Positions 18,565 to 45,574 are shown, numbered from the stretch's first letter. The stretch is 64,000 nt of DNA from Bdellovibrionales bacterium (GCA_965217115.1 OZ244239.1:1984001-2048000), one strand, 5' to 3'. Numbers and translations are program-made. Notes: a model not told the origin generated them from the letters alone.

Positions 18565-18573
18565 AAAACCTCC

Positions 18574-18655: not shown

Positions 18656-18805
18656 CAAAATATTTAACGGGCTCAAAATGAACCCTTAGGCTTTATGATC
18701 TGTGAACGTAAGTTTTATTTATTATATTGAGATCGCTTAGATAAAAAGAAATCTAATGAAAAATGGTTTCTCACCAACCACTGTTCATTATTTCCTTGTT
18801 TTGAT

Positions 18806-18949
18806 GAGTCTAATGCCGTTTTCTTTCTAGAATATCTCCCAAAAGAATCCAGTTCTTTTCGGCGAGTTTGGCTTGGCGACTTCTATTGCATTTCTCTGCA
18901 ATGGAAGGTGACAAACGGATGTTTGAGCAAGAAAAGGGCTAGAGTCTTT
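18806..18949. repeat. Palindromic element, variant 3: left 55-bp arm, conserved core, truncated right arm
   Basis: Core halves gcgagtttggcttgg (18862-18876) and caaacggatgtttgagc (18912-18928) around apical stem cttctattgca-tttctc-tgcaatggaag; 18806-18860 is an inverted repeat of 20728-20782 (50/55). Confidence 0.85.
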
Positions 18950-18974
18950 GATCTGTACCCCAAAAAGGGGACAC

Positions 18975-19010
18975 AAAATAAAAAGCCCCATCTGTGATAT
19001 GATGGGGTTT
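18975..19010 (-). terminator. Intrinsic terminator downstream of 19092..19574
   Basis: AAAATAAAAAG-CCCCATC-tgtgatat-GATGGGG-TTT. Confidence 0.7.
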
Positions 19011-19091
19011 ATTGTTTTTAACACTGCTTTCATAATAAAGCATTTAGTTCCTAATACAAAAAAATAATTATTGTCTGTCGACTAGGTTAAG

Positions 19092-19574
19092 TCACCGAGG
19101 TTCGATTTTGCTCCTGTTAGTCGACTTTTTTCTCTGAAAAAGTGCAGAAGAAGGCCATAAATGTTTTGTTTTGGTATTAGCTAAATAAGCAATACACCCG
19201 CTAGAATCACTGCCTGGGGACCAATCAATACCGATGACAACACAGGAATTGCTGAATCTACTGATTTCCACCAAGGAACATTTAAAACCATCATGATTTT
19301 GGAAAAAAACATCAAGGTGTTTAACATTTTCTGTTGTCATGTAATAAAAATAGAATGGAGTTTTATTGGTCACCTCCACTGTATTTCCCCAGTTTGCACC
19401 TCCTTCGACGTAGTTTGCATATCCGTTGTTACCATTAATGAGTGTATCACAGTCATCAGCAAAAGCATGCAATGAAAGAATAACTATGCTGAATGCAATA
19501 ATCAATGATTTCATATTTTCTCCTTGTGTTTTATTACTTACAAAAATAATAGTTTTATTACGAGCTTTTCTCAT
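19092..19574 (-). CDS. Small secreted hypothetical protein (probable start 19514)
   Basis: AGGAG RBS before MKSLIIAFSIVILSLHAFA|DD; four Cys. Confidence 0.7.
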   Translation of the reverse strand: MRKARNKTIIFVSNKTQGENMKSLIIAFSIVILSLHAFADDCDTLINGNNGYANYVEGGANWGNTVEVTNKTPFYFYYMTTENVKHLDVFFQNHDGFKCSLVEISRFSNSCVVIGIDWSPGSDSSGCIAYLANTKTKHLWPSSALFQRKKSTNRSKIEPR

Positions 19575-19606
19575 AAGTTTGTTTAATTTTAGATATAACC
19601 TCTGTA

Positions 19607-19699
19607 CAAATTAATCAATAACATTATCTAATTTTGGAAAAATTTACAAATTTGCGAATTGACTCATAAATAATCACACCGAAAAGGCCTGAGGGCGAA
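19607..19699. repeat. Shared upstream (promoter-like) region, copy 1
   Basis: ...tttacaaatttgcgaattgactcataaataatcacaccgaaaaggcctgagggcgaa, near-identical to 20601-20696. Confidence 0.85.
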
Positions 19700-19923
19700 T
19701 ATACTGGCAAATAAAGAAGCCCGTTCGACTCAAAACAAAAACACCTATAAGATATTTAAGAGTATCAAAAACAAACACTTATGGGGGTTAAATAATGAGG
19801 AACGAGCTAAATACAATTATTATAGAAAAATACCAAGATGACTACAAAACTTGAAAAAACTGCTATAGGTTCTTTAAGTTTTATTGAGATTTTTTTTAAC
19901 CTACCTTTAAAGGTTTTATAAAT

Positions 19924-19955
19924 AAAAAAGATACTGCTAATTAAAACAGTATCTT
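19924..19955 (-). terminator. Intrinsic terminator downstream of 20049..20516
   Basis: A-tract plus AAGATACTG...CAGTATCTT hairpin. Confidence 0.6.
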
Positions 19956-20048
19956 CATCTTTCCCTAGCCTTGATGAGCTAGTTAGTTATTTAAATCTAG
20001 TGACAGAGGTGTAAAACTCTCTTTTTCAGAAAAAGATAGCAACAATTA

Positions 20049-20516
20049 TTATATTTCATATTGCACAGTGCATGCGGCCCTAGAATAATCGAAATTACTA
20101 CCATGTCGACTTATCTCAACCTGCAGCAGGTTATTTTCTTTCTTTTTTATTGTTAAAATTCTTCTAGCATAATAATAAACCCCACCTGCCTGTAACACTG
20201 ACACGGTAAGTGTATCACCTACGATTGAACAAGATTCAGTCGTCTCCGTTGCAAGCTCATCTGTAAGCATAGGTACATAGTGTCGATCATCTAATTCAAC
20301 GCGAGTATGAGGAACGTCGAAACGTACTTTTACTCGACAGTTTTTATGTTTATAAACGCTTTCAAAAACAGTGTCTTCAGTTTCACTAATACTGAAATTT
20401 GTAAATTGAAGAAATTTATTTGCACAATTTTTTGTAGAACTTGTGGCTAATGCCGACGTACTAAATGCCAAAAAAAACACTAGCCTTGGTAATAAATTTT
20501 TCATTTTTCTCTCCAA
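20049..20516 (-). CDS. Small secreted hypothetical protein (probable start 20504)
   Basis: GGAG RBS, signal peptide MKNLLPRLVFFLAFSTSALA, four Cys. Confidence 0.7.
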   Translation of the reverse strand: MERKMKNLLPRLVFFLAFSTSALATSSTKNCANKFLQFTNFSISETEDTVFESVYKHKNCRVKVRFDVPHTRVELDDRHYVPMLTDELATETTESCSIVGDTLTVSVLQAGGVYYYARRILTIKKKENNLLQVEISRHGSNFDYSRAACTVQYEI

Positions 20517-20600
20517 TCTGTATCGCTCATCTGAGCAATGGTTTTATCACAAGCTTTGCCCATGATTTCTTTAATTAAATAAACTTCTACCCATCCCTCG

Positions 20601-20696
20601 CAAATAGTCAATAAAGTTATTTGATTTGGAATTTTTTACAAATTTGCGAATCGAATTGACTCATAAATAATCACACCGAAAAGACCTGAGGACGAA
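20601..20696. repeat. Shared upstream (promoter-like) region, copy 2
   Basis: tttacaaatttgcgaa(tcgaa)ttgactcataaataatcacaccgaaaagacctgaggacgaa; has a 5-bp micro-duplication relative to copy 1. Confidence 0.85.
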
Positions 20697-20782
20697 AATG
20701 GGAGGTGACAAACGAATGTTTGAGCAAGAAAAGGGCTGGATTCTTTTGGGAGAGACTCTAGAAAAAAAACGGCATTAGACTC
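20697..20782. repeat. Palindromic element, variant 3: right half with complete 55-bp arm
   Basis: 20697-20737 is a direct repeat of 18900-18940 (39/41); 20728-20782 is an inverted repeat of 18806-18860; ends 15 bp from the tRNA-Arg 3' end. Confidence 0.85.
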
Positions 20783-20797
20783 GCAGAGCTTGCCAAA

Positions 20798-20874
20798 TGG
20801 TGACCGCGGCAGGAATCGAACCTGCGGCCTACAGTTTAGGAAACTGTCGCTCTATCCTACTGAGCTACGCGATC
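20798..20874 (-). tRNA. tRNA-Arg (CCT)
   Basis: GATCGCGTAGCTCAGTAGGATAGAGCG-ACAGT-TTCCTAA-ACTGT-AGGCCGCAGGTTCGATTCCTGCCGCGGTCACCA. Confidence 0.96.
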
Positions 20875-20917
20875 CTCTAAGAACGGAAACTCTAGCATGG
20901 GTTTTCTGTAAATGGAA

Positions 20918-22555
20918 TTACTTAGTTTGAAAGAGAGTTTTGTCTGAGGCCCATTTCTGATTAAGTTTTTTGAGTCCATCAAGCCAAGTCGTCGGAGAGT
21001 TGACGGTGTTTGTAAAAGATCGCTCGGTCATAAGAATAGCAGAACCTTCTTCGGAAGAGCCTTTAGAAATGTCATTGAGGATTGATTTTTTCCGAGTGAT
21101 GAGTTTGGAGAGAGTCTCTGACGAACATAAGAGTTTAACTTGAGAGGACAACTCCATAGAATTAAAAAAGTCACAGTATTCAATAACGGCATTAAGATTA
21201 AAATAAAACAGCTGAAATTGGTCTTGGGAATCTTGATAATGGATTTTTAAATGAGAATCACTCCAATCAAGGCCACTCTCAATGAAAAAGCGATGGGCGA
21301 ACTCATGATTGACTTCTCTCTTAGCGACTCTCTCTAAAAAGGGGGTTAATTTGGGGAACAAATCACTTTCAGATTTGCTAGCAACTGGATAAAATTTAAG
21401 GGAAAAGGTATCAACCCACCATTTCGTAAAAGACAAGTATCTATCATATGTTTTCTTGGTGTTGTTTATAGACCAATTTAAGTAACGTTGAGCTTGAGAT
21501 TTGAACAAGAAACGGTCGAGAGAAATCTTTAGCTTGAGTAACTCAGCGGGGCCAACACTACTAAATTGATCATTGTGGATATCCTCTAAGTTCTTCTTTT
21601 CGGCAAGAACCCATTCAAGGCTATTGATTGTTTCTAGAGTAATCTCTCCCAGAGGTTTAAGAAATTTCTTATCTGCTTCGGATGCTAAGACAGACCACTT
21701 TTCTGATGAAAAATTAATTTTTTTGGAAGTGGGAAAGAGGTAACTTTTAATAATTTGTTCACAGTTAGTGCAGTTCTTGGACAGATCTTGAAGTCGGCTA
21801 AGGAGGGTTTCCTGTAGTTTTGTAAGTTCAGAAACTCTTTTCATGGGATGAGTTGAATTGACCAGTTGTTGTCTGATTTCATAATAGGAACAAAGGGTAT
21901 TTGCGTAGGCATCCCGTTGAGATTTTTCTTTGAAATCGTAGCCGGGATTAGCCGCTGAGACATAGGTTTTCAAACCGGTAAGGACACCTGAAGTTAATGA
22001 TCCAAAAAGAGTAATGGGGGCACCGTAGGGGCCTGAAACCATGGCTGCCAGCCGTGTTATTTCGGTAATGATACTAGCGGCATTTGAAAGGGCTTGGGAC
22101 TTAGTTTTTTCTCTTTCAAAGCAACTTGAGTTTTTGATGGCCCCCATGAACTTAAAGAAAACTTGGGTGGCCGAATAAGCATATTTTTGGATAAAAGCAG
22201 TTTGTTGCGCTGTGAGAGCTTTGTTTTTATTCTTATCAAAGAGGTCAAAGAAATTGATCCTTTGATTTGAAGAGAGAAAACTGTGAACACCATTGAGTGT
22301 GGAGTTAACATTTGTCTGTTCCTTTTCCGTGCTGCAATTTCTGGCTTCGTTGCGGATTTTATCTCTGAGCTGATCAAACGTATTAATCAGTTGAGAAATT
22401 TGGGGATGAATAGAAGGGCATTGAATTTTGTGATAGCTGAGATCTTCTGCTGAAGAATCAACGGCAAAGAAGTGAGTAGATGAAGAGTAGGATTGACTTG
22501 AAAAGCCCAGGGAGATGAGAACGGTTGTAAATAAGGTAGACATTGTATTTTTCAT
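20918..22555 (-). CDS. Secreted, largely helical hypothetical protein
   Basis: Signal peptide, paired cysteines, amphipathic helices, one hydrophobic hairpin (LAAMVSGPYGAPITLFGSLTSGVL). Confidence 0.75.
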   Translation of the reverse strand: MKNTMSTLFTTVLISLGFSSQSYSSSTHFFAVDSSAEDLSYHKIQCPSIHPQISQLINTFDQLRDKIRNEARNCSTEKEQTNVNSTLNGVHSFLSSNQRINFFDLFDKNKNKALTAQQTAFIQKYAYSATQVFFKFMGAIKNSSCFEREKTKSQALSNAASIITEITRLAAMVSGPYGAPITLFGSLTSGVLTGLKTYVSAANPGYDFKEKSQRDAYANTLCSYYEIRQQLVNSTHPMKRVSELTKLQETLLSRLQDLSKNCTNCEQIIKSYLFPTSKKINFSSEKWSVLASEADKKFLKPLGEITLETINSLEWVLAEKKNLEDIHNDQFSSVGPAELLKLKISLDRFLFKSQAQRYLNWSINNTKKTYDRYLSFTKWWVDTFSLKFYPVASKSESDLFPKLTPFLERVAKREVNHEFAHRFFIESGLDWSDSHLKIHYQDSQDQFQLFYFNLNAVIEYCDFFNSMELSSQVKLLCSSETLSKLITRKKSILNDISKGSSEEGSAILMTERSFTNTVNSPTTWLDGLKKLNQKWASDKTLFQTK

Positions 22556-22706
22556 GATTTGGACTCTAGCATAAAATAAAAAAAAAGCGAAATTCAGTTG
22601 AGAAAACAGAGCATTTCTGTACTATTTACATGGTTTGAGTGGACATGTGTGATATTAATGGGAAGAGATTTGTGAAAATAACCGATTGCGGTGATGGAGC
22701 CTTGAA

Positions 22707-23201
22707 ATGATGGAAAAAAAGTTAGGTCTTGTGATATTGGTTTTTTGGCTTGTGGGTTGCTCGTCACCGACAAAAATAAAGCCAGTGTCTGGAGAGCAGA
22801 TTTTTGTAGCTCCTTTTGATAAAGTTTGGCGGGCGACACAAATAGCATTGGTTAAGTATCCCATTCGCACAAATAATATTGATCAGGGTATTTTAGAGAC
22901 AGATAATATTCATAGCTACGATGGATGGAAGCCACCCCATAAGAGTGCTAAAAAATCCGGAGGTCTTTATTACAAGTTGCTCATTAAGGTGATCAAAGGT
23001 CGTTATCGTGAAAGAGAAGTGACGAAAGTGATTGTTAGCAAAAAAATTAATCTAAAGCGCTCCTTTTTCTCTGAAAACCAAGAACGCCAGAGTGATGGTT
23101 TAGAAGAAAAGGTAATTCTTTATCGTATTAAGCGAGAATTGAAAATAGAGAGAGCCTTTGAAAGATCAGATAAAAAGACAAAAGAATCAGAGAACTCTTA
23201 A
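22707..23201 (+). CDS. Lipoprotein (BamC/DUF3568-like helix-grip domain possible)
   Basis: Lipobox LVG|C; FDKVWRATQIAL...IDQGILETD motif. Confidence 0.7.
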   Translation: MMEKKLGLVILVFWLVGCSSPTKIKPVSGEQIFVAPFDKVWRATQIALVKYPIRTNNIDQGILETDNIHSYDGWKPPHKSAKKSGGLYYKLLIKVIKGRYREREVTKVIVSKKINLKRSFFSENQERQSDGLEEKVILYRIKRELKIERAFERSDKKTKESENS

Positions 23202-23227
23202 AAGCCCGTTTGAGTGGCTATGGAAAC

Positions 23228-24043
23228 TTAGCTGGGGTTTTCCGTGGAAGAGTCCATTTCAACGGAGTAACCATTGTGCTTGCGGACATTGAAAACGCCT
23301 GTGTCTAGCAAGAGATATTGACCTTTGATTCCCTGCAAAGTCCCCAAAATGGTAGGAGTCTTCTCTAGAGAGAGGGAGAGAATCTTCTGGGGATAAACTT
23401 CCACTGGATATTCAAGAAAAATGGGATCATCCTCAAGAAACTCTACGTCATCAAAGGCTTCGAGCTCTTGTTCAATACTGTCAACAATCCCGTTGCGAGC
23501 TGTCTCTAGATCGATGTCCTCAATATCGTTTGTGAGCATCTTGCGCCAATTGGTTTTGTCAGAGACGTAGTCCTTCATAAGAACTTCAATAAGACCAGAT
23601 TGAAGTCTGTCCTTAACTCTAAAGACAGGAATGGCTGAAATAGCCCCCTGATCTATCCACCGTGTTGGAATTTGTGATTCCCTGGTGATGCCCACCTTTA
23701 AGCCTGATGAATTGGACAAATAGACATAATGGGGTTTCATGCAATGGGATTGGGCCCAGTTTTCGTCTCGGCAGGTTCCTTTAGAAAAGTGGCAAGTTTC
23801 AGGTTTAAGAATACACATATCGGCTTCAGCGAGTTTTTGACTGCACGGATAACAATAGCCTCCTGAAAAGCTTTTCTTAGTGATCTTTTGACAATGAACG
23901 CAGTGAATCTGTCCTGAGTATTGGATTCTGATTTCTCTCCCAATGAGGGCGTTCATGTCTACCTTGTCACCGCCCAAATTTAGAGTGTAGGAAATAGGGG
24001 AGTTGAGAGCTGTGGACATTTTGTATAGATTCCCTGTTTTCAT
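23228..24043 (-). CDS. DUF2797 domain protein
   Basis: GNLYKM, CVHC...KKSFSGGYCYPC, PETCHF, PHYVYL, KVGITR, RWIDQGA, DKTNWRKML, GIKGQYLL, NVRKH. Confidence 0.9.
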   Translation of the reverse strand: MKTGNLYKMSTALNSPISYTLNLGGDKVDMNALIGREIRIQYSGQIHCVHCQKITKKSFSGGYCYPCSQKLAEADMCILKPETCHFSKGTCRDENWAQSHCMKPHYVYLSNSSGLKVGITRESQIPTRWIDQGAISAIPVFRVKDRLQSGLIEVLMKDYVSDKTNWRKMLTNDIEDIDLETARNGIVDSIEQELEAFDDVEFLEDDPIFLEYPVEVYPQKILSLSLEKTPTILGTLQGIKGQYLLLDTGVFNVRKHNGYSVEMDSSTENPS

Positions 24044-24163
24044 AGAGTGATGATAGCAAATTTACGCAATGAGTTGAAGGGGTATTTTTATATATAATCT
24101 CCATTTACTTGCTAATCGTAGAATATATCTAGTAAAAGGGAGGGAAATAAGAGAAAAAAAAGA

Positions 24164-25270
24164 ATGGAGAGAGAAACTATTTCTTTAAGAACATCTTTAA
24201 CAGTGGGGATCAAAATGAGAATCATTAATTCACTCAGTATGATAGTATTAACGGCATTGATTGGTGCAACAGCCTTGGCTGATCGTGTGATTCAATGGAG
24301 TGGCGATTTACGTTATCGTCAGGAAGTCATTGAGTCTGATACTGTAGGTAGAAGTCGTTCCCGTATTCGGGCGCGGATTAAAGCCGAAGCTGAAGTGAAT
24401 GAGAAGGTTGATGTGACCCTACGCTTGGCAACAGGTGGTCATGGCGTGACTTCAACGAATCAGACACTCGGTAATTATGGCAGCAATAAGCCGATCGATT
24501 TAGATATGGCTTATTTTGAATGGAGACCGGTAGGGAGTCTAAAAATTTGGGCTGGAAAAATGAAAAACCCCCTTTACCAGGGAAATAGTGATCTGATTTT
24601 TGATACTGACTGGACTCCAGGTGGTTATGCTTTTAATTATGAGACGGGCAGGGATGATGGGTTTGCTATGTTCATTAATTTTTCCGAAATTTCTATTGAT
24701 GAGAGAGCAAACACTAAAAGGGATGCTTCTTTAGATGGGTCACAGATTGGGTTTAGAATTCCTTTCCTTGGCACTGAGTTAACTCTAGGGTATGGGGCTT
24801 TGAGGTTTGACAATATAAAAGGTTATGATGGGGCTTTTATCAATAGAGGAAACAGTCTTGTCTTAGACAAATATGTCAATGAGTACAATCTCCAGCAAAT
24901 ATTCTTAGCCTATGATTTTAAAATCAAAGATATTGGTGTGCAGATTTTTGTTGAAGATGTGAATAACACCGAGGTTGTTGAGCAAAGCAAGGGGTTTCTC
25001 TACGGCTTTAAAGTAGGTAACGCCGAGAAAAAGGGAACATGGGATCTAAAAATAACTTATAGAGAGCTTGAAAAGGACGCTGTTTTGGGTGGCATCACTG
25101 ACGGGGATACTTTTGGAGGAACTGATGGCAAGGGTGTTGTTCTTGGTTTTAATTATGCCTGTGGTGATAATTCCTCTTTAGGATTGAGTTTCTATGATGT
25201 AAAACGCTCTGTTTCTATGGTAGAAATAGATTATAAAAAACTTCATTTGAATTACGTAATGAAATTTTAA
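24164..25270 (+). CDS. Putative porin (Porin_5-like), likely phosphate-related; probable start 24215
   Basis: WSGDLRYRQE, RSRIRARI, RLATG...STNQTL, IDLDMAYF, AGKMKNP, C-terminal Phe; first gene of the pst operon. Confidence 0.85.
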   Translation: MERETISLRTSLTVGIKMRIINSLSMIVLTALIGATALADRVIQWSGDLRYRQEVIESDTVGRSRSRIRARIKAEAEVNEKVDVTLRLATGGHGVTSTNQTLGNYGSNKPIDLDMAYFEWRPVGSLKIWAGKMKNPLYQGNSDLIFDTDWTPGGYAFNYETGRDDGFAMFINFSEISIDERANTKRDASLDGSQIGFRIPFLGTELTLGYGALRFDNIKGYDGAFINRGNSLVLDKYVNEYNLQQIFLAYDFKIKDIGVQIFVEDVNNTEVVEQSKGFLYGFKVGNAEKKGTWDLKITYRELEKDAVLGGITDGDTFGGTDGKGVVLGFNYACGDNSSLGLSFYDVKRSVSMVEIDYKKLHLNYVMKF

Positions 25271-25331
25271 TTTTTTTGTCATTTTTGGGCTACTTTGTTA
25301 TGCCATGAGTGTTTAAACAGGAAATGGTAAA

Positions 25332-26252
25332 ATGTTTAGAAGTATCATAGTGGTTTTAGCTGCTTTAGTAGCAGCTGTTCCGGGGCAAGGCGCTTCTAGA
25401 TTAAGAGGCAAGGTGCGAATCGATGGATCGAGTACAGTTTTTCCCATCACCGAAGCTGTGGCTGAAGAATTTAACAAAGAGTTTCCTCGGGTAAGGGTTC
25501 AGATAGGTATTTCTGGAACAGGCGGGGGCTTTAAGAAGTTTTTTAGAAAAGAATCTGATATTAATAATGCTTCGAGAGAAATTCAAGGTAAAGAACTGGA
25601 ACTAGCAAAGGAAAAAGGGGCTGATTATTTAGAATTAGCTGTGGCCTATGATGGAATATCTGTGGTGATTAATCGGGAAAACACCTGGGCACGCACGATG
25701 ACGACAGGACAATTAAAAAAGATATGGCAGGCGGGGAGCAAGGTAAAAAAATGGTCAGATATAGATTCGAAATGGCCCCAGACGCCCCTTCGTCTTTATG
25801 GCCCAGGCACTGACTCTGGTACATTTGATTACTTTACAAAAGTGATCAATGGCAAATCCCATTCGAGTCGTGCGGATTACACAAAGAGTGAAGATGACAA
25901 TGTTTTAGTAAAAGGCGTCACAGGGGATAAAAACGCCTTGGCTTATTTTGGTTATGCCTATTATCGTGAGAATATAAAAAAGCTAAATGCTGTGGCACTG
26001 AGTTATAAAGGGGGCAAAGGAGTCCTGCCCTCAGTGGAGACGATTAATAACAATTCCTATAAACCCTTGTCGCGACCGATTTTCATCTATGTCAGTAAGT
26101 CTTCATTGAAAAACCCTGGAGTGAAGGAATTTATCATTTATTATTTGAAAACAGCAGGACAACTTGTGAATCAAGTGGGATATGTGGCTCTTCCTGAGAA
26201 AAAATATAAGAGGTTATTAAAAAGATTTAAGAAATGGGCTTCTGCTGAATAA
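25332..26252 (+). CDS. pstS: Phosphate ABC transporter substrate-binding protein
   Basis: IDGSSTVFPITEAVAEEF, SGTGGGFKKF, NASR, DSGTFDYF, SEDDN, PLSRPIFIY. Confidence 0.96.
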   Translation: MFRSIIVVLAALVAAVPGQGASRLRGKVRIDGSSTVFPITEAVAEEFNKEFPRVRVQIGISGTGGGFKKFFRKESDINNASREIQGKELELAKEKGADYLELAVAYDGISVVINRENTWARTMTTGQLKKIWQAGSKVKKWSDIDSKWPQTPLRLYGPGTDSGTFDYFTKVINGKSHSSRADYTKSEDDNVLVKGVTGDKNALAYFGYAYYRENIKKLNAVALSYKGGKGVLPSVETINNNSYKPLSRPIFIYVSKSSLKNPGVKEFIIYYLKTAGQLVNQVGYVALPEKKYKRLLKRFKKWASAE

Positions 26253-26264
26253 AAAGGGCGAGGT

Positions 26265-28021: not shown

Positions 28022-28061
28022 TGAAAATGGTGGTGAATGTGTGTAATGAGTATAAAGATGG

Positions 28062-28841: not shown

Positions 28842-28844
28842 TGT

Positions 28845-29546: not shown

Positions 29547-29683
29547 GTAATAGCCAGAAGAGATGATATAGAGAGGCCTCTGAAGCGGGTTTTTAGTAAT
29601 GCTGCGCGCCAATCGTCAAGAAAACATGGACTTTAGTCCTAAGATTTTTGAGTATTGGAGGACTTCAAATGGAGTAAACATCT

Positions 29684-32056: not shown

Positions 32057-32074
32057 CAAGAGGAGATACTGGGT

Positions 32075-32608: not shown

Positions 32609-32620
32609 GAGAAAAAATTT

Positions 32621-37989: not shown

Positions 37990-37993
37990 GATC

Positions 37994-38950: not shown

Positions 38951-39422
38951 GTGAGAAGGTGTCTAAAACCACACAAAAACAAGGGAGTTCACCCTGCCAT
39001 TGAGGGGGGAGATAACGCGCTACACCTTAAATTAATGGGGCTCCATTGTTTTTTTTTACCGGGGAGCTAGGGCGATAAATACAGTTCTCTGCCTGGAAAA
39101 ACTCTCCAGAAATCATGTCTTTTTCTATCTTGATCTCCTTTCCAGGAGTGCTTTTTATGGTTTTTGAACGGGGTTGTACTATGGAGCGAGAGGTTCTTTT
39201 TAGGGGATCATTTTAAGTGAGTCCCCCTATTATTTAGGTGGCGGCGAGCATCATAGCTGGCCTAAGGTATAGAAAAAGGGTTGCCAGTCATATATTTTAT
39301 CTGAAACCATATATATCAGGTAGGAAATTTTAAAAATAGAACATCGGTCGAGCAGTCTCTGAAATAGGTTAGGGCAGTTTGGCCAAAGACTTTAACAACA
39401 TTGCCGTTCTTTGGAGGACTAA

Positions 39423-40457
39423 ATGAAAAAAATTCTTAGTACACTTGTAGGAATCATGCTGTTTACAACAGTGAGTCACGCATCTAAGGCTAGATTAAAT
39501 GCTTTAGGGCAAGATGGAGATGGATCTTTATACATCTTAGACAACCGTAACATTTTTCTAAACCCATCAACGTTGAATGATGTGAAAAGTGGTATTTACA
39601 CTGAATGGGGCTCTAACCCAGAAGGTGGATTTGTTAAGTATTTAGGGGGTATGAAATTTGGTTTTCATATGGGCTCTGATTCAGCACCCGACTATAACGG
39701 TAAGTACTTGCACTCTGGTAACGGTCTTGACTTTTTCTTAGCTGGTGAATCACGGGTTAAGTGGGGTGTCGCTCTTTCCTATGTATCAAATGAATTGAAA
39801 GATGGTGATGATGACGTATTTAAAGAGAGTTCAACCGGTCTTAAACTGGGTGCTTCACGGGGCAACTGGTCAGCATTTGCTCACCTTGGATTGGGTGGAA
39901 AAGCTGAAGGGAGTATTTTTAATGACGAAGATGGGCAGCAGCCTGACGATATTAATGATGTCGCAGAAGGTAAATCATCTTACACTCTTGGTGGAACCTA
40001 CAACGTAGGTCAAGGAACTGTTTTTCTTAAGTATAAAACTGGAGAGACAGAAGTAAGTGGAGTGGATACTAATTTAAGTAAATCTGCTACTTCCCTTGGT
40101 TGGCACAACGGTCATGACATGGGTGATAACGGAATGTGGTTTTACACACTGTCTTATGATAAAGAAACGGCTGAGGGCGGAGCTTTTGACTTGGATTTTG
40201 AAGACACAGCTCTTAAGTCGATTATTGGTTTTGAAGCCCAAGGAGCTAGCTGGCTAACTTTACGTGGGTCTGTTTCCCAACGCACTTTCATCAATGAAGG
40301 CAGTGATGGATCTGTTCCAAACACAACAGCTGTTGCGGCGGGTGCTACGCTTAACTTTGGTAGCTTAAGTATTGATGGAAGCCTAGGAAGTATTGGTGAT
40401 GCAAGTTTAAACGCTTTTGATCTACTTTCTGACGTTGCCCTATCTTACTCGTTCTAA
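39423..40457 (+). CDS. Major outer-membrane beta-barrel protein (Bdellovibrio-type)
   Basis: Signal peptide ...SHA|SKARLNALG, DNRNIFLNP, LTLRGSVSQ, C-terminal YSF; strong GGAGG RBS and terminator. Confidence 0.82.
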   Translation: MKKILSTLVGIMLFTTVSHASKARLNALGQDGDGSLYILDNRNIFLNPSTLNDVKSGIYTEWGSNPEGGFVKYLGGMKFGFHMGSDSAPDYNGKYLHSGNGLDFFLAGESRVKWGVALSYVSNELKDGDDDVFKESSTGLKLGASRGNWSAFAHLGLGGKAEGSIFNDEDGQQPDDINDVAEGKSSYTLGGTYNVGQGTVFLKYKTGETEVSGVDTNLSKSATSLGWHNGHDMGDNGMWFYTLSYDKETAEGGAFDLDFEDTALKSIIGFEAQGASWLTLRGSVSQRTFINEGSDGSVPNTTAVAAGATLNFGSLSIDGSLGSIGDASLNAFDLLSDVALSYSF

Positions 40458-40481
40458 GCTAAGTTTTATTTAAAACTGATT

Positions 40482-40511
40482 AAAAAGGAGACTGTAGAGT
40501 CTCCTTTTTTT
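40482..40511 (+). terminator. Intrinsic terminator (possibly bidirectional)
   Basis: AAAAAGGAGACT-gtag-AGTCTCCTTTTTTT. Confidence 0.9.
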
Positions 40512-40543
40512 ATATTTGTGTTTCTTTAATAGTTTATAAAAGG

Positions 40544-41665
40544 ATGTGCATCTTGAAAGGGCCTTCCCACGGAGTTCTTCTAATTCAAACAGCGTTTATT
40601 GGTGATTTGTTATTAACAATCCCCCTCGCCCGTCGCTTAAAAGAATTACTGCCTGAGCATCCTCTAACTCTTTTATGTCGTAAGGGCTTAGGAGATATTT
40701 TACTGGCAACTAAAGTGATTGATCATGCTGTGGAAGTGGATAAGAGAGATCGCAATGCTTGGAAACAGATAGGGGAAAATCTTAAACAAAAAAAATATAA
40801 ATGGGTTGTGTGTCCCCATCGTTCTTTCACATCGGCTCGTCTGGTCAGCTCCTTAAAGGCAGACAAGAAGATTGGCTATTCTCTTTGGTGGAATTTTACG
40901 GTTTTTGACCATCGAGTGCAACGTCCTTTGATTGAGCCGGAGGTGATACGTCAGTTATATCTTATAAGTGAATTAGACAAAGTAACAGGTAAGAGGCTGG
41001 AGTCTTACAGTGGTCACCAGAAGAGTGCTTTATCTCAAGTACCCACCTGGGCTTCCATGGAATTAAGTGAGACTGTGTTTCTCCCGTCTAAGACAGAGAT
41101 ATTAAAGAAAAAATACCTATCGAGATGGAGTGATGGAGAGAAAAAAATCATCTCAGTGGCGCCGGGAAGTGTGTGGCCAACTAAGAGATGGAGGCTTGAT
41201 GGATATAAGCAATTGATTGCTGAGTTGCTGGATCGTGATTTTTCCGTGATTTTACTCGGATCGCCTGATGAGAGAGGGATTTGCGATGAAATAGAAGAGT
41301 CACAACAGCAGGGTAGGCGGTCTCAAGTTGTGAATTTAAGTGGTGAGACTTCCCTACTAGAGTCCTTGTATTTGATGAAACTGACTTCTGTGCTCGTCGC
41401 CAATGACAGTGGTGCTATGCACATGGCCTCGGTTGCGGGTGTCCCGTGTGTGTCTATTTTTGGTCCGACGACATTGGGATTAGGTTACCGACCATGGCAG
41501 AATAATGCTGCCGTAGTGGAGAATAAGAACCTATCTTGTCGACCTTGCGGTAAACATGGTCACAGAAAATGCCCTATTGGGACCCATGAGTGTATGACTT
41601 CATTGAAGGTGCCTGAGGTCTTGTCCCAACTGGGGCTTCTGGCAAATGACCCGTTTCTTAAATGA
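40544..41665 (+). CDS. GT9 LPS heptosyltransferase (WaaF-like)
   Basis: IQTAFIGDLLLTIP, APGSVWPTKRW, ANDSGAMHMA, IFGPT, CRPCGKHG...CP...HECM. Confidence 0.92.
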   Translation: MCILKGPSHGVLLIQTAFIGDLLLTIPLARRLKELLPEHPLTLLCRKGLGDILLATKVIDHAVEVDKRDRNAWKQIGENLKQKKYKWVVCPHRSFTSARLVSSLKADKKIGYSLWWNFTVFDHRVQRPLIEPEVIRQLYLISELDKVTGKRLESYSGHQKSALSQVPTWASMELSETVFLPSKTEILKKKYLSRWSDGEKKIISVAPGSVWPTKRWRLDGYKQLIAELLDRDFSVILLGSPDERGICDEIEESQQQGRRSQVVNLSGETSLLESLYLMKLTSVLVANDSGAMHMASVAGVPCVSIFGPTTLGLGYRPWQNNAAVVENKNLSCRPCGKHGHRKCPIGTHECMTSLKVPEVLSQLGLLANDPFLK

Positions 41666-42090
41666 GTCTTTAAATTATTTAGCTCAGACATTCGTTTGGC
41701 ATGCACCGCTCGCTTTAAAGCGAGCAAGTGCTGGCAAAGAACACCAACTCCCCCCACTTCGCTGTTCCCAGTCGAAGGCTTCAAAGGAGAGTTTCTGAGC
41801 TAAATAATGAGCTAAATAATGAAGCCTCATTTAAGAAACGGCTCATTTGCCAAACATTCCCTTGGAAGTCCCATGGGCTGTGAACAACGGGGATGGCTTC
41901 TGGCAAAGAACACTTTATACTCGCCCTGCTTCGCTGTTCCCAGTCAGTTGAAGGCTTCAAAGGAGAGTTTCTTAAATGAGTCTTTGTTATTTAGCGAGTT
42001 CGGCTTGGTGCACTGCTCGCTTTGCGAGCGGTGCTGCCAAACGAATGTCTGAGATAAATAATGAAGCCTCATTTAAGAAACGGGTCATTT
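41633..42090. repeat. Cluster of palindromic elements (variant 2), partly scrambled
   Basis: Inverted repeat 41641-41666/41826-41851; perfect palindrome gctcgctttaaagcgagc at 41708-41725; complete inverted variant-2 unit about 41960-42090; gagctaaataat x2. Confidence 0.92.
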
Positions 42091-42213
42091 AAAAAAAGGA
42101 TTTAACGTTGAAGACTCTAAACTCAAGGACAAAAGTCTAGGTTTACTGAAAACAACGTTTAACTTTAAACTTCATAAGTACTTAAGACCATAATCTACCA
42201 AGGAAGTTTTTTC

Positions 42214-42993
42214 GTGAAAAAGGAGTGTGTAATGAGAGTCTTGTTATTTTTCTGTTTTTTATTCATTTTTGAAGTTTCCTTTGCTGAAGAATACGCGGAG
42301 GGAAAAGTTCAATTAGCAAAAGTTGGTACAAAAGATGAAGCATTTCTCATCGGCGGCAAATATGTAAGTTCGTGTTCTAAGGGGGATTCTAAAACCCGAA
42401 AAACCCTATTGAATGCTATGTCTAATAATGAAAATGTTAATGTTAGTTTTATAGGAGGAGCTTCGAAGAGTTCTGAATGTATAACAAAGGTTAGATTTGT
42501 AACTTCAAAGTGTTTCGATGATTTGAAAGAAATGTCGTCTGAGTTTCGGAGTGATTCGGACAAGGGGTACGGAGATTCTAAAGGTCTTTTGAATAAGTTT
42601 TCTACTTTTGACTATCAATTTGATGAGAATACCCAGAGACATGTCCCATCGATAGTACAGCAAGGAGGAGCAAAGGAAGGCATTACAGTTATAACTCCCT
42701 CTGGTACAATGAAGGTTTCTGGTAGAAGCTGCAATCTCGTATCTAAGAAAACAAGTTTTAAATTTATTGCAGAAGCACTTAAGTCTGGATATGAGGAAAT
42801 TAAGCTTAGAGACAGAATTAGAAGTCTAGCTGGAAGGAGGTATAAGAAGAATGGTGATCTTGATAGATATAAGAAATTACTCAAAACATGCTCTAAGAAT
42901 ATACATCCAGACATTGAAGCCTCTGCTAAATCAATTTTAAATAAAATTAATGGCTCTACTACTGTCAATCGAACGAAAAAGGTGATTAACTAG
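42214..42993 (+). CDS. Secreted hypothetical protein flanked by direct repeats (probable start 42232)
   Basis: AGGAG RBS, signal peptide MRVLLFFCFLFIFEVSFA|EE, several Cys. Confidence 0.75.
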   Translation: MKKECVMRVLLFFCFLFIFEVSFAEEYAEGKVQLAKVGTKDEAFLIGGKYVSSCSKGDSKTRKTLLNAMSNNENVNVSFIGGASKSSECITKVRFVTSKCFDDLKEMSSEFRSDSDKGYGDSKGLLNKFSTFDYQFDENTQRHVPSIVQQGGAKEGITVITPSGTMKVSGRSCNLVSKKTSFKFIAEALKSGYEEIKLRDRIRSLAGRRYKKNGDLDRYKKLLKTCSKNIHPDIEASAKSILNKINGSTTVNRTKKVIN

Positions 42994-43047
42994 ATTTTGT
43001 GCCACTAGGTTCTGAGACGAATTAAGAATCAAAAAGTTCAGCCTTTC

Positions 43048-43086
43048 AAAATGGCTCCCGTAAAAAGAAGCCATTTTTATTTTTTT
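43048..43086 (+). terminator. Intrinsic terminator of 42214..42993
   Basis: AAAATGGCT...AGCCATTTT followed by a T-rich tract. Confidence 0.7.
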
Positions 43087-43190
43087 AGGAAAGCCCTCTA
43101 TTTAAAGTGGTCTTTTGTGACAATGTTATCTATTTCCAGAGAAAGACTAAAACTTGTTTCAAGTAAGTTTTGACTCTATGACCCGTTGTT

Positions 43191-43934
43191 GGGCTTCTGG
43201 CAAATGACTCGTCTTCAACGTTGTCTCCACTCTTTAGCTCAGACATTCGTTTGGCAGCACCGCTCGCAAAGCGAGCAGTGCACCAATCCGAACTCGCTAA
43301 AGAGTAAATCCAACTTTGAAGACTCTCCTTTGGAAGTCCCATGGGCTGTGAACAACGGGGTTGGGCTTCTGGCAAATGACTCGTCTTTAAAGTTGTCTCC
43401 ACTCTTTAGCTCAGACATTCGTTTGGCAGCACCGCTCGCAAAGCGAGCAGTGCACCAATCCGAACTCGCTAAAGAGTAAATCCAACTTTAAAGACTCTCC
43501 CTTGGAAGTCCCATAGGCTGTGAACAACGGGGATGGGCTTCTGGCAAATGACGTCTTTAAAGTTGTCTTCACTCTTTAAAGTTTGCACCCTCGCTTCGAG
43601 CTCTTTAGCTCAGTCATGGGCTTCGTTTGGCAGAACACTTTATACTCCCCCCTTCCCCCCGCCGCTCGCAAAGCGAGAGTTACCAATCCGAACTCGCTAA
43701 AGAGTAAATCCAACTTTGAAGACTCTCCCTTGGAAGTCCCATAGGCAGTGAACAACGGGGATGGGCTTCTGGCAAATGACCCGTCTTTAAAGTTGTCTTC
43801 ACTCTTTAGCTCAAACATTCGTTTGGCAGCACCGCTCGCTTTGCGAGCAATGCACCAATCCGAACTCGCTAAAGAGTAAATCCAACTTTAAAGACTCTCC
43901 CTTGGAAGTCCCATGGGCTGTGAACAACGGGGTT
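43191..43934. repeat. Tandem array of four 172-bp rod-hairpin units (variant 1)
   Basis: Units start at 43191, 43363, 43535 (228 bp, with insertions) and 43763; each is a nested IR gggcttc/gaagtcc > gtctttaaagttg/caactttaaagac > actctttagc/gctaaagagt > gctcgc-NNN-gcgagc. Confidence 0.95.
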
Positions 43935-44140
43935 GGGGTTTTGGCAAAGAACACTTTATACTCCCCCCTTCCCCCCGCTTCGCTGTTCCCAGTCAGTTGA
44001 AGGCTTCAAAGGAGAGTTTCTTAAATGAGTCTTTGTTATTTAGCGAGTTCGGCTTGGTGCGCTGCTCGCTTTGCGAGCGGTGCTGCCAAACGCATGTTTG
44101 AGCTAAATAATGAAGCCTCATTTAAGGAACGGGTCATTTA
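43935..44140. repeat. Terminal inverted palindromic unit (variant 2); part of a ~250-bp direct repeat with 41858-42109
   Basis: gtttcttaaatgag/ctcatttaaggaac and ttatttagc/gctaaataa arms around the reverse-oriented core. Confidence 0.92.
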
Positions 44141-45574
44141 AAAAAAGTTTTTAACATTAATATCGTATTTTTTTATTTTACGGAGCAAGGTGTTCTTAGG
44201 AATATTTGCGTGGGCCACCGTTTTATTGATTTTTCCCTTATTGGCTTTGAGGGCTTTTAGAATAAAATCTTTTTCAGATTGCTCTTTGAATTTATCGAAA
44301 TCAAGTTCACCAAATTCATGGGATGGAGGTGTTTTTATTGAGGATGTGGTGTGCATTGAACTGTTGCCGGAGGGAGTAGGGATCGTCGACATTTTGACGT
44401 TATCGGGTAGAGAAGCCAATGAGATTGTAGATGAATTTTCAAGGATAAATGCCCGTTCAATGACATTCTCTAATTCACGAATATTACCAGGCCAGCGATA
44501 GGATTTGAGTATTTCTAAACTAGCTGTTTCGATTTCTTGAATGTTTTTAGTTTGTTGTTTATTGAATTTTTTTATAAAATGTCGAACAAGCCTTGGGATG
44601 TCATTAACTCTATCTCTTAGAGGGGGTATGAAGATGGGCATAACGTTAAGCCGATAAAAGAGGTCTTCTCGAAAGGCATCATCTTCGATCATTTTTTCTA
44701 AGTTACGATTTGTTGCGGCGATAATTCTTGAATTGGTTTTAACCTCTCTTGTACTACCGATAGGAGTGAATCTTTTTTCTTGAAGAACTCTGAGAAGTTT
44801 TACCTGCATATCGGGCTTAAGTTCACCAACTTCATCAAGAAATAGAGTTCCGTTATTAGCTTGTTGAAAACGACCTATTTTTCTATCTGATGCTCCAGTG
44901 AAGGAACCTTTTTCGTGGCCAAAGAGTTCACTTTCCATGAGCTGTTCAGGAATTGCACCGCAATTGATTGCGACAAACTCGCCTTTCTTACGTGGGGAGT
45001 TGTAATGTATGGCACGGGCAACGAGTTCTTTCCCCGTGCCATTCTCTCCACGGACGAGAACGGAGGTGTCGACTTTACAAAGTTTATAAATAAGGTCAAA
45101 AATTTCGCGCATTTTTTCAGAGCTGCCGACAAAATCGCTATCAATGTCATCGTCAAAAATAGGATTGGAGATAGCAATTTCTGAAACAATCTGCCTAGCT
45201 TGAAGGGATTTTTTGACGATTTCAGTGAGTTTGTTGGGTTGAACTGGCTTTTCTAGATAATCATAGGCACCTTCTCTAATAGCGGCGACAGCATCGTTGA
45301 GATTACTGTGGGCCGTCATAAGTACAACGAAGGTCTTTGGCTGGATTTTTTTGATAGCTTCAAGAGCTTCAAGTCCAGTCATATTCGGCATCCGAACATC
45401 CATAAGGACAAGACCTGGTTGGTGTTGCTTGACTTGCATAAGGGCTTCTTGACCATCTTGGGCTTCTATGATGTTGAAATTAAAATTTTCCATGGACTCA
45501 AGAACGGAAATGACGGTTCTACGCAATTCACTTTCATCATCAACGATGAGAACTTTTAAATTTTCATTTTCCAT
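44138..45574 (-). CDS. Sigma-54-dependent response regulator (NtrC family)
   Basis: REC (VLIVDDE, MDVRMP), GENGTGKE, HEKGSFTGA, LFLDEVGE, FREDLFYRL, WPGNIREL, Fis HTH. Confidence 0.95.
   Translation of the reverse strand: MENENLKVLIVDDESELRRTVISVLESMENFNFNIIEAQDGQEALMQVKQHQPGLVLMDVRMPNMTGLEALEAIKKIQPKTFVVLMTAHSNLNDAVAAIREGAYDYLEKPVQPNKLTEIVKKSLQARQIVSEIAISNPIFDDDIDSDFVGSSEKMREIFDLIYKLCKVDTSVLVRGENGTGKELVARAIHYNSPRKKGEFVAINCGAIPEQLMESELFGHEKGSFTGASDRKIGRFQQANNGTLFLDEVGELKPDMQVKLLRVLQEKRFTPIGSTREVKTNSRIIAATNRNLEKMIEDDAFREDLFYRLNVMPIFIPPLRDRVNDIPRLVRHFIKKFNKQQTKNIQEIETASLEILKSYRWPGNIRELENVIERAFILENSSTISLASLPDNVKMSTIPTPSGNSSMHTTSSIKTPPSHEFGELDFDKFKEQSEKDFILKALKANKGKINKTVAHANIPKNTLLRKIKKYDINVKNFF

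What the first reader, a model, noticed from the sequence alone, without database searches (positions are those of the whole stretch)
18806..44158. Family of rod-like palindromic elements with a fixed core and exchangeable arms, bracketing secreted-protein genes at two loci: candidate cassette-capture system
Seen: one asymmetric core (GCGAGTTYGGMTTGG on one side, CAAACGRATGTYTGAGC on the other) occurs in three structural variants. Variant 1 is the 43.2-43.9 kb array; variant 2 lies at 41.6-42.1 and 43.9-44.1 kb; variant 3 lies at 18.8 and 20.7 kb. Arms and apical stems differ in sequence but stay base-paired (apex gctcgc-aaa-gcgagc versus cttctattgca-tttctc-tgcaatggaag). At both loci, duplicated element halves flank orphan genes for small secreted Cys-containing proteins, each with its own RBS and terminator (19092..19574 and 20049..20516; 42214..42993). 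Known analogues: integron attC hairpins, REP/REPIN-RAYT and IS200/IS605 HUH systems all read ssDNA hairpin structure rather than sequence. Inference: a structure-recognised, non-autonomous element mobilised in trans that captures or shuffles effector genes. No cognate enzyme is in this window.
Basis: partly seen in the sequence, partly recalled or inferred. Interest (0 to 1): 0.85.

Follow-up and report, generated by a model that had tools for sequence, protein, structure and literature searches.

The report
Conserved-core palindromic repeat family in Bdellovibrionales
The hairpin-forming repeats are real and belong to a large, undescribed family of non-coding palindromic elements found in many Bdellovibrio-like bacteria, but nothing shows that they are a machine for capturing genes.

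Summary
The two-part core has about 104 copies in this 2.17-Mb genome. It recurs in 20 of 150 other sampled genomes of the same order, always as helix, asymmetric internal loop, helix and apical stem. Arms and apex differ in sequence but stay paired.

There are two lineages here.
- Variant 3 (40 copies) is the middle of an ordinary miniature transposon with 26-bp terminal inverted repeats and 8-bp target duplications. The window copy is the only one found split by cargo.
- Variants 1 and 2 (about 64 copies) are roughly 250-nt asymmetric units. They lie downstream of genes, abut stop codons of convergent genes, and punctuate islets of small, low-GC, signal-peptide genes.

The 41.7-44.1 kb islet is an insertion: its two flanking genes are directly adjacent in four relatives.

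I found no RAYT, IS110, ISL3 or IS4/IS5-type DDE (PF01609) transposase, and no recombinase beside any array. Y1 transposases do not track the repeats across genomes.

Best reading: a new REPIN/MITE-like repeat family with an unusual conserved centre, which marks recombination-prone accessory islets. Dedicated cassette capture remains unproven. Earlier agents of this scan described single loci of the same family elsewhere in this genome.

The parts
18806..18949 (+). Variant-3 (T) rod, left part. It holds the left arm, core A (18862-18876), the apex, core B (18912-18928) and the first 21 nt of the right arm. This copy has no MITE terminal repeats.
   Evidence: Homology to about 40 other copies stops exactly at 18949. 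The motifs were located. No terminal inverted repeat was found for this copy.
18950..20696 (.). A 1,747-bp segment inserted into the T rod. It holds two minus-strand gene units, each made of a terminator, an ORF and a shared upstream module. It is flanked by the 50-nt direct repeat of T sequence.
   Evidence: GC is 0.317 over 19-20 kb.
19092..19514 (-). Orphan gene for a 140-aa protein with a signal-peptide-like N-terminus and 6 Cys.
   Evidence: Translation. No Pfam family. Terminator-like site at 19007-18986 on the minus strand.
19607..19720 (.). Shared upstream module, first copy. The second copy is at 20601-20699. The module recurs upstream of other small secreted-protein genes and of dnaK.
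   Evidence: BLAST matches at 788k, 739k, 735k, 1009k and 403.7k. Repeat families D13 and D16.
20049..20504 (-). Orphan gene for a 151-aa signal-peptide protein with 4 Cys. A 753-nt block containing it (19892-20639) is 96% identical to genome 403844-404596, which lies between dnaK and dnaJ.
   Evidence: Terminator-like site at 19956-19927 on the minus strand.
20697..20782 (+). T rod, right part. It runs from the 3' half of the apex through core B (20709-20725) to the end of the right arm. The outer 13 nt pair with 18806-18818 and are specific to this copy.
   Evidence: (inverted repeat I7).
20798..20874 (-). tRNA-Arg(CCT). Its 3' end lies 15 nt from the rod.
40544..41665 (+). Heptosyltransferase (GT9) gene, the left flank of islet 2. 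Its last 8 or so codons overlap the outer arm of a C element.
   Evidence: Pfam. Alignment of the gene end to the array spacers. Homologues.
41640..41731 (-). Truncated C element holding the outer arm, the complement of core B (41682-41698) and the apex. It is broken directly after the apical stem.
41732..41852 (+). Remnant of a plus-oriented C unit. It keeps the CT-rich stretch, the 5' module and the right arm, and has lost the centre of the rod. It includes a 12-nt tandem duplication.
   Evidence: (families D7, D10, D11).
41907..42109 (+). Complete C unit of variant 2, made of a CT-rich stretch, the 5' module and the rod (41958-42098). It is the left copy of the 189-nt direct repeat.
   Evidence: family D2; z -6.9.
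42232..42993 (+). Orphan cargo gene for a 253-aa protein with a signal peptide and 6 Cys. It has two weak paralogues (34% identity over 95 aa) in another C islet at 1909-1911 kb.
43188..43950 (-). Four tandem C units of variant 1 with a 172-nt period. The third unit is interrupted by a 28-nt CT-rich insert between the core and the apex.
   Evidence: family D1; z -9.4.
43948..44158 (+). Complete C unit of variant 2, the right copy of the direct repeat. Its 3' end overlaps the stop codon of the next gene.
44138..45574 (-). Sigma-54-dependent response regulator gene, the right flank of islet 2. In four relatives it is the convergent neighbour of the GT9 gene.

Best explanation
These are members of a previously undescribed, order-wide family of non-coding palindromic repeats of the REP/REPIN and MITE kind. 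The unusual point is that the conserved part is the centre, not the ends.

The centre is about 30 nt. It forms a basal helix, a small asymmetric internal loop (GA on the 5' side, GTCTGA on the 3' side), a 9-10 bp helix (TTYGG.TTGG with CCAAACG.A) and an apical stem. The flanking arms and the apex are free to change as long as they pair.

The genome holds two lineages.
- T (variant 3) rides inside a conventional miniature transposon with terminal inverted repeats and an 8-bp target duplication. Its transposase is no longer present.
- C (variants 1 and 2) is a roughly 250-nt polar unit that sits downstream of genes. It has multiplied locally, in tandem and within islets.

I infer that long, near-identical hairpin repeats are fragile and recombinogenic. 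They therefore mark and enlarge small accessory islets wedged between convergent housekeeping genes. On this reading the bracketing of secreted-protein genes is a by-product of repeat-mediated duplication, insertion and recombination, not the work of a dedicated capture enzyme.

Shown: the family, its structure, copy number, distribution, the T ends and duplications, the C polarity, and the insertion status of islet 2. Inferred: that the core is a protein (or RNA/ssDNA) recognition site, and that recombination between copies builds the islets.
For: Copy number: the covariance model finds about 104 places in the genome. That is 115 matches, of which 11 are weak opposite-strand matches at the same places.

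An exact-pattern scan of one genome per species returned 17 stretches, all in Bdellovibrionales-labelled MAGs. The viral collection gave 0 and metagenome contigs gave 13.

Structure: on 38 matches from other genomes, 94.7% of cells pair against 58.7% in shuffles (0 of 500 reach it) and 40-46% when the partners are slid. Compensatory changes occur at 35 of 37 pairs. On the first alignment it was 28 of 37.

Long palindromes: 56 of the 57 found in the genome carry this core or a variant of it.

T lineage: both terminal repeats were found in 25 of 40 copies. By eye, 13 of those 25 have 8-bp AT-rich direct repeats outside them.

C polarity: the A side faces a gene's 3' end in 23 of 26 non-internal cases. 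Of the 18 B sides that face a 3' end, 14 lie within 56 nt of the stop codon.

Bracketed ORFs (n = 32): median length 196 against 288 aa, GC 0.364 against 0.396 (p = 1e-6), and signal-peptide-like 62% against 38% (p = 0.006).

Islet 2 is an insertion: GT9 and the sigma-54 regulator are convergent neighbours, between 8 nt of overlap and a 42-nt gap, in 4 of 11 relatives' loci. The cargo gene was found in none of the 11.

No partner enzyme was found.

Neighbours of the repeats in 41 loci from other genomes are ordinary housekeeping genes.
Against: - The strict sequence conservation of the core, inside helices that could covary, implies a specific reader that I could not name.
- C copies within one array are far more alike than the genes between them. 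At 427-430 kb the repeats are about 94% identical while the two genes share 46% amino-acid identity. At 474-483 kb four identical cores separate unrelated genes. This fits site-specific accretion or concerted evolution as well as passive recombination.
- In another genome (G142), 12 of 12 copies examined have copy-specific outer arms that are perfectly complementary. Ordinary MITE or REP biology does not explain this.
- The statistics on bracketed genes use a crude gene caller and a crude signal-peptide rule, and the data points are not independent.
Confidence: 0.55

Rival explanations
1. The C unit is a site-specific recombination site. It would be integron-like, or like the tandem accretion of integrase-less islets at gene 3' ends. 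The folded or duplex core would be read by a recombinase acting in trans, and small gene units carrying a C site would be added one after another at a resident C site next to a stop codon.
For: - Arrays of C units in one orientation are separated by 1-3 gene segments in 7 of 8 islets, and the cargo is co-oriented with them.
- Direct repeats bound islet 2. By eye, the left copy carries about 20 nt resembling the 3' end of the regulator gene beyond the unit.
- The array spacers resemble the end of the GT9 gene.
- Repeat variants are specific to each array.
- The cargo is orphan and low in GC.
- Five or six loci share one layout: an inverted C pair with B ends pointing outward onto convergent stop codons.
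- The islet is absent from relatives.
Against: - No recombinase lies at any array. The genome holds three full and one fragmentary Phage_integrase matches, at 605k, 743k, 1679k and 1564k, all away from arrays. The 743k one lies in an ICE-like region.
- The core does not fit the attC R-box consensus as I recall it, and it does not resemble this genome's dif candidate.
- Cargo genes carry their own upstream modules and terminators.
- Many C units stand in gene-free tandem arrays.
- No target duplication or defined crossover point was found at the C ends.
Confidence: 0.17
2. The rods act as RNA. They would be a structured element in 3' untranslated regions or intergenic transcripts, serving as a stabiliser, insulator, processing site or protein sponge, with the internal loop as a protein-binding motif. 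Their spread by duplication and by the MITE would then be secondary.
For: - C units lie downstream of a co-oriented gene in 23 of 26 cases.
- In this genome, G-T mismatches in the arms outnumber A-C mismatches on the core-A-to-core-B strand, 47 against 18.
- The tandem G-A potential of the loop resembles a kink-turn. That resemblance is recalled, not tested.
- The core sequence is conserved across families of the order.
Against: - No Rfam family matches at the gathering threshold or at E up to 5.
- In the other genomes the mismatch asymmetry disappears, 13 against 11.
- T copies show no such orientation towards genes.
- Variant cores replace the loop G with C.
- T-runs precede the rods and A-runs follow them, so they are not intrinsic terminators on either strand.
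- Neighbouring genes differ from copy to copy.
Confidence: 0.18
3. The elements are REPINs mobilised by a RAYT (Y1/HUH) transposase.
For: - The architecture is a hairpin doublet with compensatory changes.
- One RAYT-like ORF (Y1_Tnp, 29.5 bits) lies 140 nt from a divergent rod in one relative, locus L065.
Against: - There is no Y1_Tnp match in this genome, which is 99.4% complete and in one contig.
- Y1_Tnp is present in 17 of 20 other rod-bearing genomes and in 100 of 130 rod-free ones, so there is no association.
- Two rod-rich genomes lack Y1_Tnp: G089 with 14 matches and G142 with at least 25.
- In L065 only one rod flanks the ORF, not an inverted pair.
Confidence: 0.04

Closest known systems
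REP/REPIN elements with RAYT transposases (for example in Pseudomonas and E. coli)
   Same: They are short, non-coding and intergenic, and form hairpins. Copies number in the tens to hundreds and often sit at gene 3' ends or in tandem. Compensatory changes keep the stem.
   Different: There is no RAYT in the genome and no association with Y1 genes across 150 genomes. The conserved unit is a roughly 30-nt split core at the centre of rods 110-250 nt long. It is not a 20-40 nt REP with a conserved 5' tetranucleotide (that description is recalled). The arms are exchangeable.
Bacterial MITEs such as Correia (CREE/NEMIS), ERIC/IRU, RUP and ISL3-derived MITEs
   Same: Variant 3 has 26-bp terminal inverted repeats, 8-bp target duplications, lengths of 263-520 nt and 40 near-identical copies, with no coding capacity. 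The 8-bp duplication and GG-starting ends resemble the ISL3 family, a comparison made from memory.
   Different: No ISL3 or other matching transposase is in the genome. The part shared with variants 1 and 2 and with other genera is the internal hairpin core, not the ends. Variants 1 and 2 showed no terminal repeats or target duplication.
Integron attC sites and chromosomal cassette arrays (such as Vibrio VCRs)
   Same: The sites are imperfect hairpins with unpaired bases, read by structure. Sites within one array are highly similar. Small co-oriented orphan genes lie between the sites.
   Different: There is no IntI, attI or common promoter. The conserved bases lie in the middle of the hairpin rather than at its base. 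The cargo has its own upstream modules and terminators. Many units are gene-free tandem repeats.
Tandem accretion of integrase-less islets (CIME-like) at the 3' ends of genes
   Same: Islets sit exactly at stop codons of conserved genes and are bounded by direct repeats that include gene-end-like sequence. The flanking genes are adjacent in relatives.
   Different: The islets are only 1-8 kb. The repeat is a genome-wide hairpin family rather than a site-specific att sequence. No cognate integrase was identified.

Membership tests
Integron gene cassettes (attC) | An IntI-type tyrosine recombinase gene with attI and a promoter at one end of the array | tested here: not met
   PF00589 gives 4 matches, at 605k, 743k, 1564k (a fragment) and 1679k. 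None is at an array (arrays listed). The IntI-specific insertion was not tested.
Integron gene cassettes (attC) | R''/R' boxes at the base of the hairpin (consensus recalled from memory) and extrahelical bases in the L boxes | tested here: not met
   The conserved bases lie mid-stem, and the bases of the arms vary freely. An asymmetric internal loop does exist.
Integron gene cassettes (attC) | Units made of one promoterless ORF plus one site, all in the same orientation | tested here: inconclusive
   Cargo is co-oriented with the sites in 7 of 8 islets. However, segments hold 1-3 genes with their own upstream modules and terminators, and many units hold no gene at all.
REP/REPIN-RAYT | A RAYT (Y1_Tnp) gene in the genome, typically flanked by inverted REPs | tested here: not met
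   There is no PF01797 match in the genome, and no co-occurrence across 150 genomes.
REP/REPIN-RAYT | An inverted doublet that forms a hairpin kept by compensatory substitutions | tested here: met
MITE (DDE transposon derivative) | Terminal inverted repeats and target-site duplications of fixed length | tested here: met
   This holds for variant 3 only. Both 26-bp terminal repeats were found in 25 of 40 copies, and by eye 13 of those 25 have 8-bp duplications. Neither feature was found for variants 1 and 2.
MITE (DDE transposon derivative) | A related autonomous element with the same ends | tested here: not met
   The terminal repeat occurs only on T copies. PF01610, PF01609 and PF01548 are absent, and there is a single rve remnant at 1562k.
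IS200/IS605-derived elements (PATEs) | Subterminal hairpins with a Y1 TnpA, and no terminal repeats or target duplication | tested here: not met
   There is no Y1 gene. T has terminal repeats and target duplications. T does show a bias towards the leading strand, 30 of 40 copies.
Curated RNA families (Rfam 15) | A match to a covariance model | tested here: not met
   Only 4 tRNAs reach the gathering score. Nothing relevant appears at E up to 5 over 41.6-44.2 kb.
Xer-dependent integrating elements (IMEX) | A dif-like XerC/XerD site, either folded or duplex | tested here: not met
   The dif candidate at 184749-184767 resembles the B. bacteriovorus dif listed in PMC2731167 (passages read). The core shares only a 5-mer run with it, by eye.

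The most novel reading that the evidence does not exclude
The conserved core would be the recognition or priming site of an unidentified hairpin-specific process, acting on ssDNA or RNA and confined to Bdellovibrionales. That process would copy the core to new places and build an inverted duplicate of the local flank around it, giving copy-specific but perfectly paired arms. The same sites would let small gene units be added at stop codons of convergent genes. This would be a structure-specified mobile or recombination system with no known enzyme class.
Probability: 0.2. Interest if true: 0.85.

Novelty: new variant of a known kind. Interest (0 to 1): 0.6.

Why it matters
Interspersed palindromic repeats are usually defined by their ends (MITEs) or by a short motif read by a RAYT (REPs). 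Here the centre is conserved across families of an order while everything around it is replaceable. In at least one genome each copy has its own perfectly paired arms.

This points to an unidentified reader of the hairpin core. It may also point to a way of making palindromes from flanking DNA.

The elements also mark the places where a small predatory-type genome keeps its variable secreted-protein genes. That makes them practical landmarks for finding accessory islets.

If an enzyme is found, it could be a new tool that recognises structure rather than sequence.

Tried and rejected
- RAYT/Y1: absent here and not associated with the repeats across genomes.
- IS110, ISL3 and DDE_Tnp_1: absent.
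- Other recombination or mobility genes: one rve remnant, one partial resolvase and one reverse transcriptase in a defence-like neighbourhood. None is near a rod.
- Xer/dif idea: there was no match to a recalled enterobacterial dif at up to 7 mismatches. A dif candidate was found near the skew maximum, but it is unlike the core.
- Insertion into pre-existing palindromes: rejected for this genome, because essentially no long palindrome lacks the core.
- Empty-site test for the copy-specific arms of G142: same-genus genomes are too diverged at the DNA level.
- Sequencing runs: no RNA holder is listed. The four runs come from one sample and are held as contigs. The laid contigs break at the repeats. 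One low-depth joint (41863 to 43005, depth 4.4, side 30) and a lower contig depth over the cargo in one run (10.5 against 28-34) are too weak to use.
- A second split T copy at 1425 kb turned out to be an internal replacement, not cargo.
- Strand asymmetry of wobble pairs is not robust outside this genome.
- Literature: three full-text searches were made (Bdellovibrio + palindromic + repeat + intergenic; Bdellovibrio + miniature inverted-repeat; palindrome-associated transposable elements). From the listings and abstracts, none describes this family.
- An earlier-findings look-up by sequence found nothing.

Full report
**1. Is it there?**

Yes. In the window, core A has 7 matches and core B has 8 at up to one mismatch. 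Shuffles give 0.02 and 0.00.

Single units fold into rods with z-scores from -5.3 to -15.

The window is positions 1,984,001-2,048,000 of a single 2,170,531-bp contig with 39.6% GC. Relatives that carry the motif are labelled Bdellovibrionales.

**2. How big is the family?**

Genome-wide there are 89 exact core A sites and 61 exact core B sites. Within 2 mismatches, 93 A+B pairs lie on one strand.

I built a covariance model from 39 diverse copies. It finds 115 matches. Eleven of these are weak opposite-strand matches at the same places, which leaves about 104 copies: 40 of variant 3 ('T') and about 64 of variants 1 and 2 and close variants ('C').

A separate search for long palindromes found 57. 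Of these, 52 contain a T or C core pair and 4 more contain a variant or half core. Only 1 is unrelated. In this genome, then, a long palindrome almost always means this family.

**3. Distribution outside the genome**

- An exact split-core pattern, scanned over one genome per species, hit 17 stretches. All are in MAGs labelled Bdellovibrionales, Bdellovibrionaceae or Pseudobdellovibrionaceae.
- The viral collection gave none. Metagenome contigs gave 13.
- The model matched 20 of 150 other sampled genomes of the order, in 8 of 13 families.

The core sequence is almost invariant in these copies, while the arms and apex are unrelated in sequence yet paired. On 38 matches from other genomes, 94.7% of cells pair. 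Shuffles give 58.7% (0 of 500 reach the observed value) and slid partners give 40-46%. Compensatory changes occur at 35 of 37 pairs. That alignment was fitted to the model, which favours the structure somewhat.

**4. Anatomy of the core**

The consensus fold has these parts:
- a basal helix that ends in G-C/C-G pairs;
- an internal loop, GA on the 5' side and GTCTGA on the 3' side;
- a short helix (G-T, T-A, then C-G, G-C) and a 2-by-1 loop;
- the helix TTGG/CCAA;
- the apical stem.

The position opposite the second T of the TT pair can be any base.

**5. Variant 3 is the inside of an ordinary MITE**

Alignment with longer flanks showed that conservation runs well beyond the rod.

Both 26-bp terminal inverted repeats were found in 25 of 40 copies. 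By eye, 13 of those 25 are flanked by 8-bp AT-rich direct repeats. Element lengths are about 263, 343 and 460-520 nt, depending on the extra modules.

The terminal repeat occurs nowhere else in the genome, and no ISL3-type transposase is present.

In 30 of 40 T copies the core-A-to-core-B strand is the leading strand (binomial p = 0.002; tandem copies are not independent).

**6. Locus 1**

The window's T copy has no terminal repeats. It has 13 nt of copy-specific outer arm and lies 15 nt from the 3' end of tRNA-Arg.

Homology to all other T copies stops at 18949 and resumes at 20697. The resumption point is 50 nt back in the element. So a 1,747-bp segment sits inside the right arm, flanked by a 50-nt direct repeat that includes core B.

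The insert consists of two gene units. Their terminator and upstream modules recur at other secreted-protein genes. One unit, 753 nt long, is 96% identical to a copy between dnaK and dnaJ that has no rod beside it.

I found no other T copy with cargo. The one other partial copy I examined is an internal replacement. I read locus 1 as a single irregular insertion into a fragile hairpin. That reading is an inference.

**7. Variants 1 and 2 are a polar unit of about 250 nt**

The unit consists of a variable CT-rich stretch, a conserved 5' module, the rod, and a 3' module ending near TTTGCCCAAATC.

- The A side faces the 3' end of a gene in 23 of 26 non-internal cases.
- The B side faces a 3' end in 18 of 34 cases. 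In 14 of those 18 it lies within 56 nt of the stop codon, which means the arm touches or overlaps the stop.
- In five or six loci an inverted pair with B ends pointing outward caps two convergent genes, and the cargo or arrays lie between them.

Islet 2 of the window is one of these loci. The last codons of the GT9 gene lie in the outer arm of a truncated unit. The stop codon of the regulator gene lies at the edge of the right-hand unit.

**8. Are the bracketed genes special?**

Thirty-two ORFs lie between C copies. Two of them look spurious. Compared with the rest of the genome:
- they are shorter, median 196 against 288 aa;
- they are lower in GC, 0.364 against 0.396 (p = 1e-6);
- they are more often signal-peptide-like, 62% against 38% (p = 0.006).

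The gene caller and the signal-peptide rule are crude, and genes within one islet are not independent.

Some bracketed genes are tandem paralogues and others are unrelated.

Islet 2 is an insertion. In 4 of 11 relatives' loci the GT9 and regulator orthologues are convergent neighbours, between 8 nt of overlap and a 42-nt gap. Here they are 2,472 nt apart. The cargo gene is found in none of the 11 loci. In the other 7 loci the regulator was not within the stretch that was fetched.

**9. Search for an enzyme**

- PF01797 (Y1/RAYT): none.
- PF00589 (tyrosine recombinase): three full and one fragmentary match, none at an array. The 743k match lies in an ICE-like region.
- PF01610, PF01548 and PF01609: none.
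- One rve remnant, one partial resolvase and one reverse transcriptase in a defence-like setting.

Across the order, Y1_Tnp is present in 17 of 20 other rod-bearing genomes and in 100 of 130 rod-free ones. One RAYT-like ORF lies beside a divergent rod in L065, and only one rod flanks it.

Neighbours of the rods in 41 loci from other genomes are ordinary housekeeping genes, and four rods lie next to tRNA genes.

**10. The oddest result**

In genome G142, all 12 copies examined share the core and about 25 nt of inner arm. Beyond that, each has its own outer arms. By eye, all 12 remain complementary for a further stretch, 22-65 nt in the 11 copies that an ungapped count could follow; the twelfth has an indel.

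I tested one such arm, and its only full-length matches in that genome are itself and its inverted partner.

One MAG shows the same thing: an identical core and apex with different arms.

Neither MITE nor REP biology predicts this. Possible explanations are palindrome extension by template switching at the hairpin, or an insertion process that makes an inverted duplicate of the flank. I could not test either, because the same-genus genomes are too diverged.

**11. RNA or DNA?**

There is no Rfam match. Among arm mismatches in this genome, G-T outnumber A-C on the A-to-B strand by 47 to 18. In other genomes the counts are 13 and 11.

The downstream-of-gene polarity of C units is compatible with a 3'-UTR role. 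No RNA run is listed for this organism, so the question stays open.

**12. Verdict**

The element family is new as far as three literature searches show (listings and abstracts only).

It behaves like a REPIN/MITE-type repeat with an unusual conserved centre. It marks islets of accessory secreted-protein genes at convergent gene ends.

A capture mechanism has not been shown. No cognate enzyme was identified here, so one could only be a host factor or an unknown protein.

Earlier agents of this scan described single loci of the same family in this genome, at 913-919 kb, 1377 kb and 1972 kb. They reached MITE-like or accretion readings without the family-wide view.

Noticed in passing
window 19607-19720 and 20601-20699; also genome 403719-403768, 734974-735074, 739794-739883 and 788049-788155: A shared upstream module of 70-110 nt precedes several unrelated small secreted-protein genes, and also dnaK. 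It may be a common promoter or 5' UTR for a regulon of exported proteins.
   Followed up: partly
genome 403844-404596 (outside the window): A 753-nt gene unit, 96% identical to window 19892-20639, sits between dnaK and dnaJ. It is an accessory secreted-protein gene inside a classic chaperone operon.
   Followed up: partly
G142 loci L112-L123: All 12 copies examined have copy-specific outer arms. By eye, all 12 stay complementary beyond the shared inner arms, for a further 22-65 nt in the 11 copies an ungapped count could follow. This suggests inverted duplication of the local flank, or palindrome growth.
   Followed up: partly
genome 184749-184767 (minus strand): A candidate chromosome dimer resolution site (dif) lies near the maximum of cumulative GC skew. 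It resembles the B. bacteriovorus dif listed in PMC2731167.
   Followed up: partly
genome 1868366-1869313 (minus strand): A 315-aa reverse transcriptase lies next to an XRE-type HTH gene and a 902-aa helicase or restriction-like gene, just downstream of rpoC, rpsL and rpsG. It looks like a defence-type RT and is not linked to the rods.
   Followed up: no
genome 1560497-1567371, plus 428145, 429454, 753490 and 788216: An eight-member family of secreted proteins of about 177 aa, 46-72% identical. Four members cluster around an IS3-like remnant (rve at 1562304-1562603). Only the two at 428-430 kb are bracketed by C units.
   Followed up: partly
window 18567-18659: A 41-nt tandem repeat with 2.3 copies lies just upstream of gene 18157-18564, beside the T rod.
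   Followed up: no
L022, L029, L146 and window 20782-20798: In four separate genomes or contigs a rod lies directly next to the 3' end of a tRNA gene.
   Followed up: no
genome 427524-430350; also a contig in run X4 at window 43267-43270: A sub-variant carries a second palindrome of about 35 nt nested in the apical loop. The rods can therefore also grow from the centre.
   Followed up: no
genome 743313-760000: An ICE- or prophage-like region holds the only non-Xer tyrosine integrase, an excisionase-like gene and large ATPase genes. No rods lie at its ends. An inverted repeat with 36 paired bases, its arms 410 nt apart, lies at 741198-741679.
   Followed up: no
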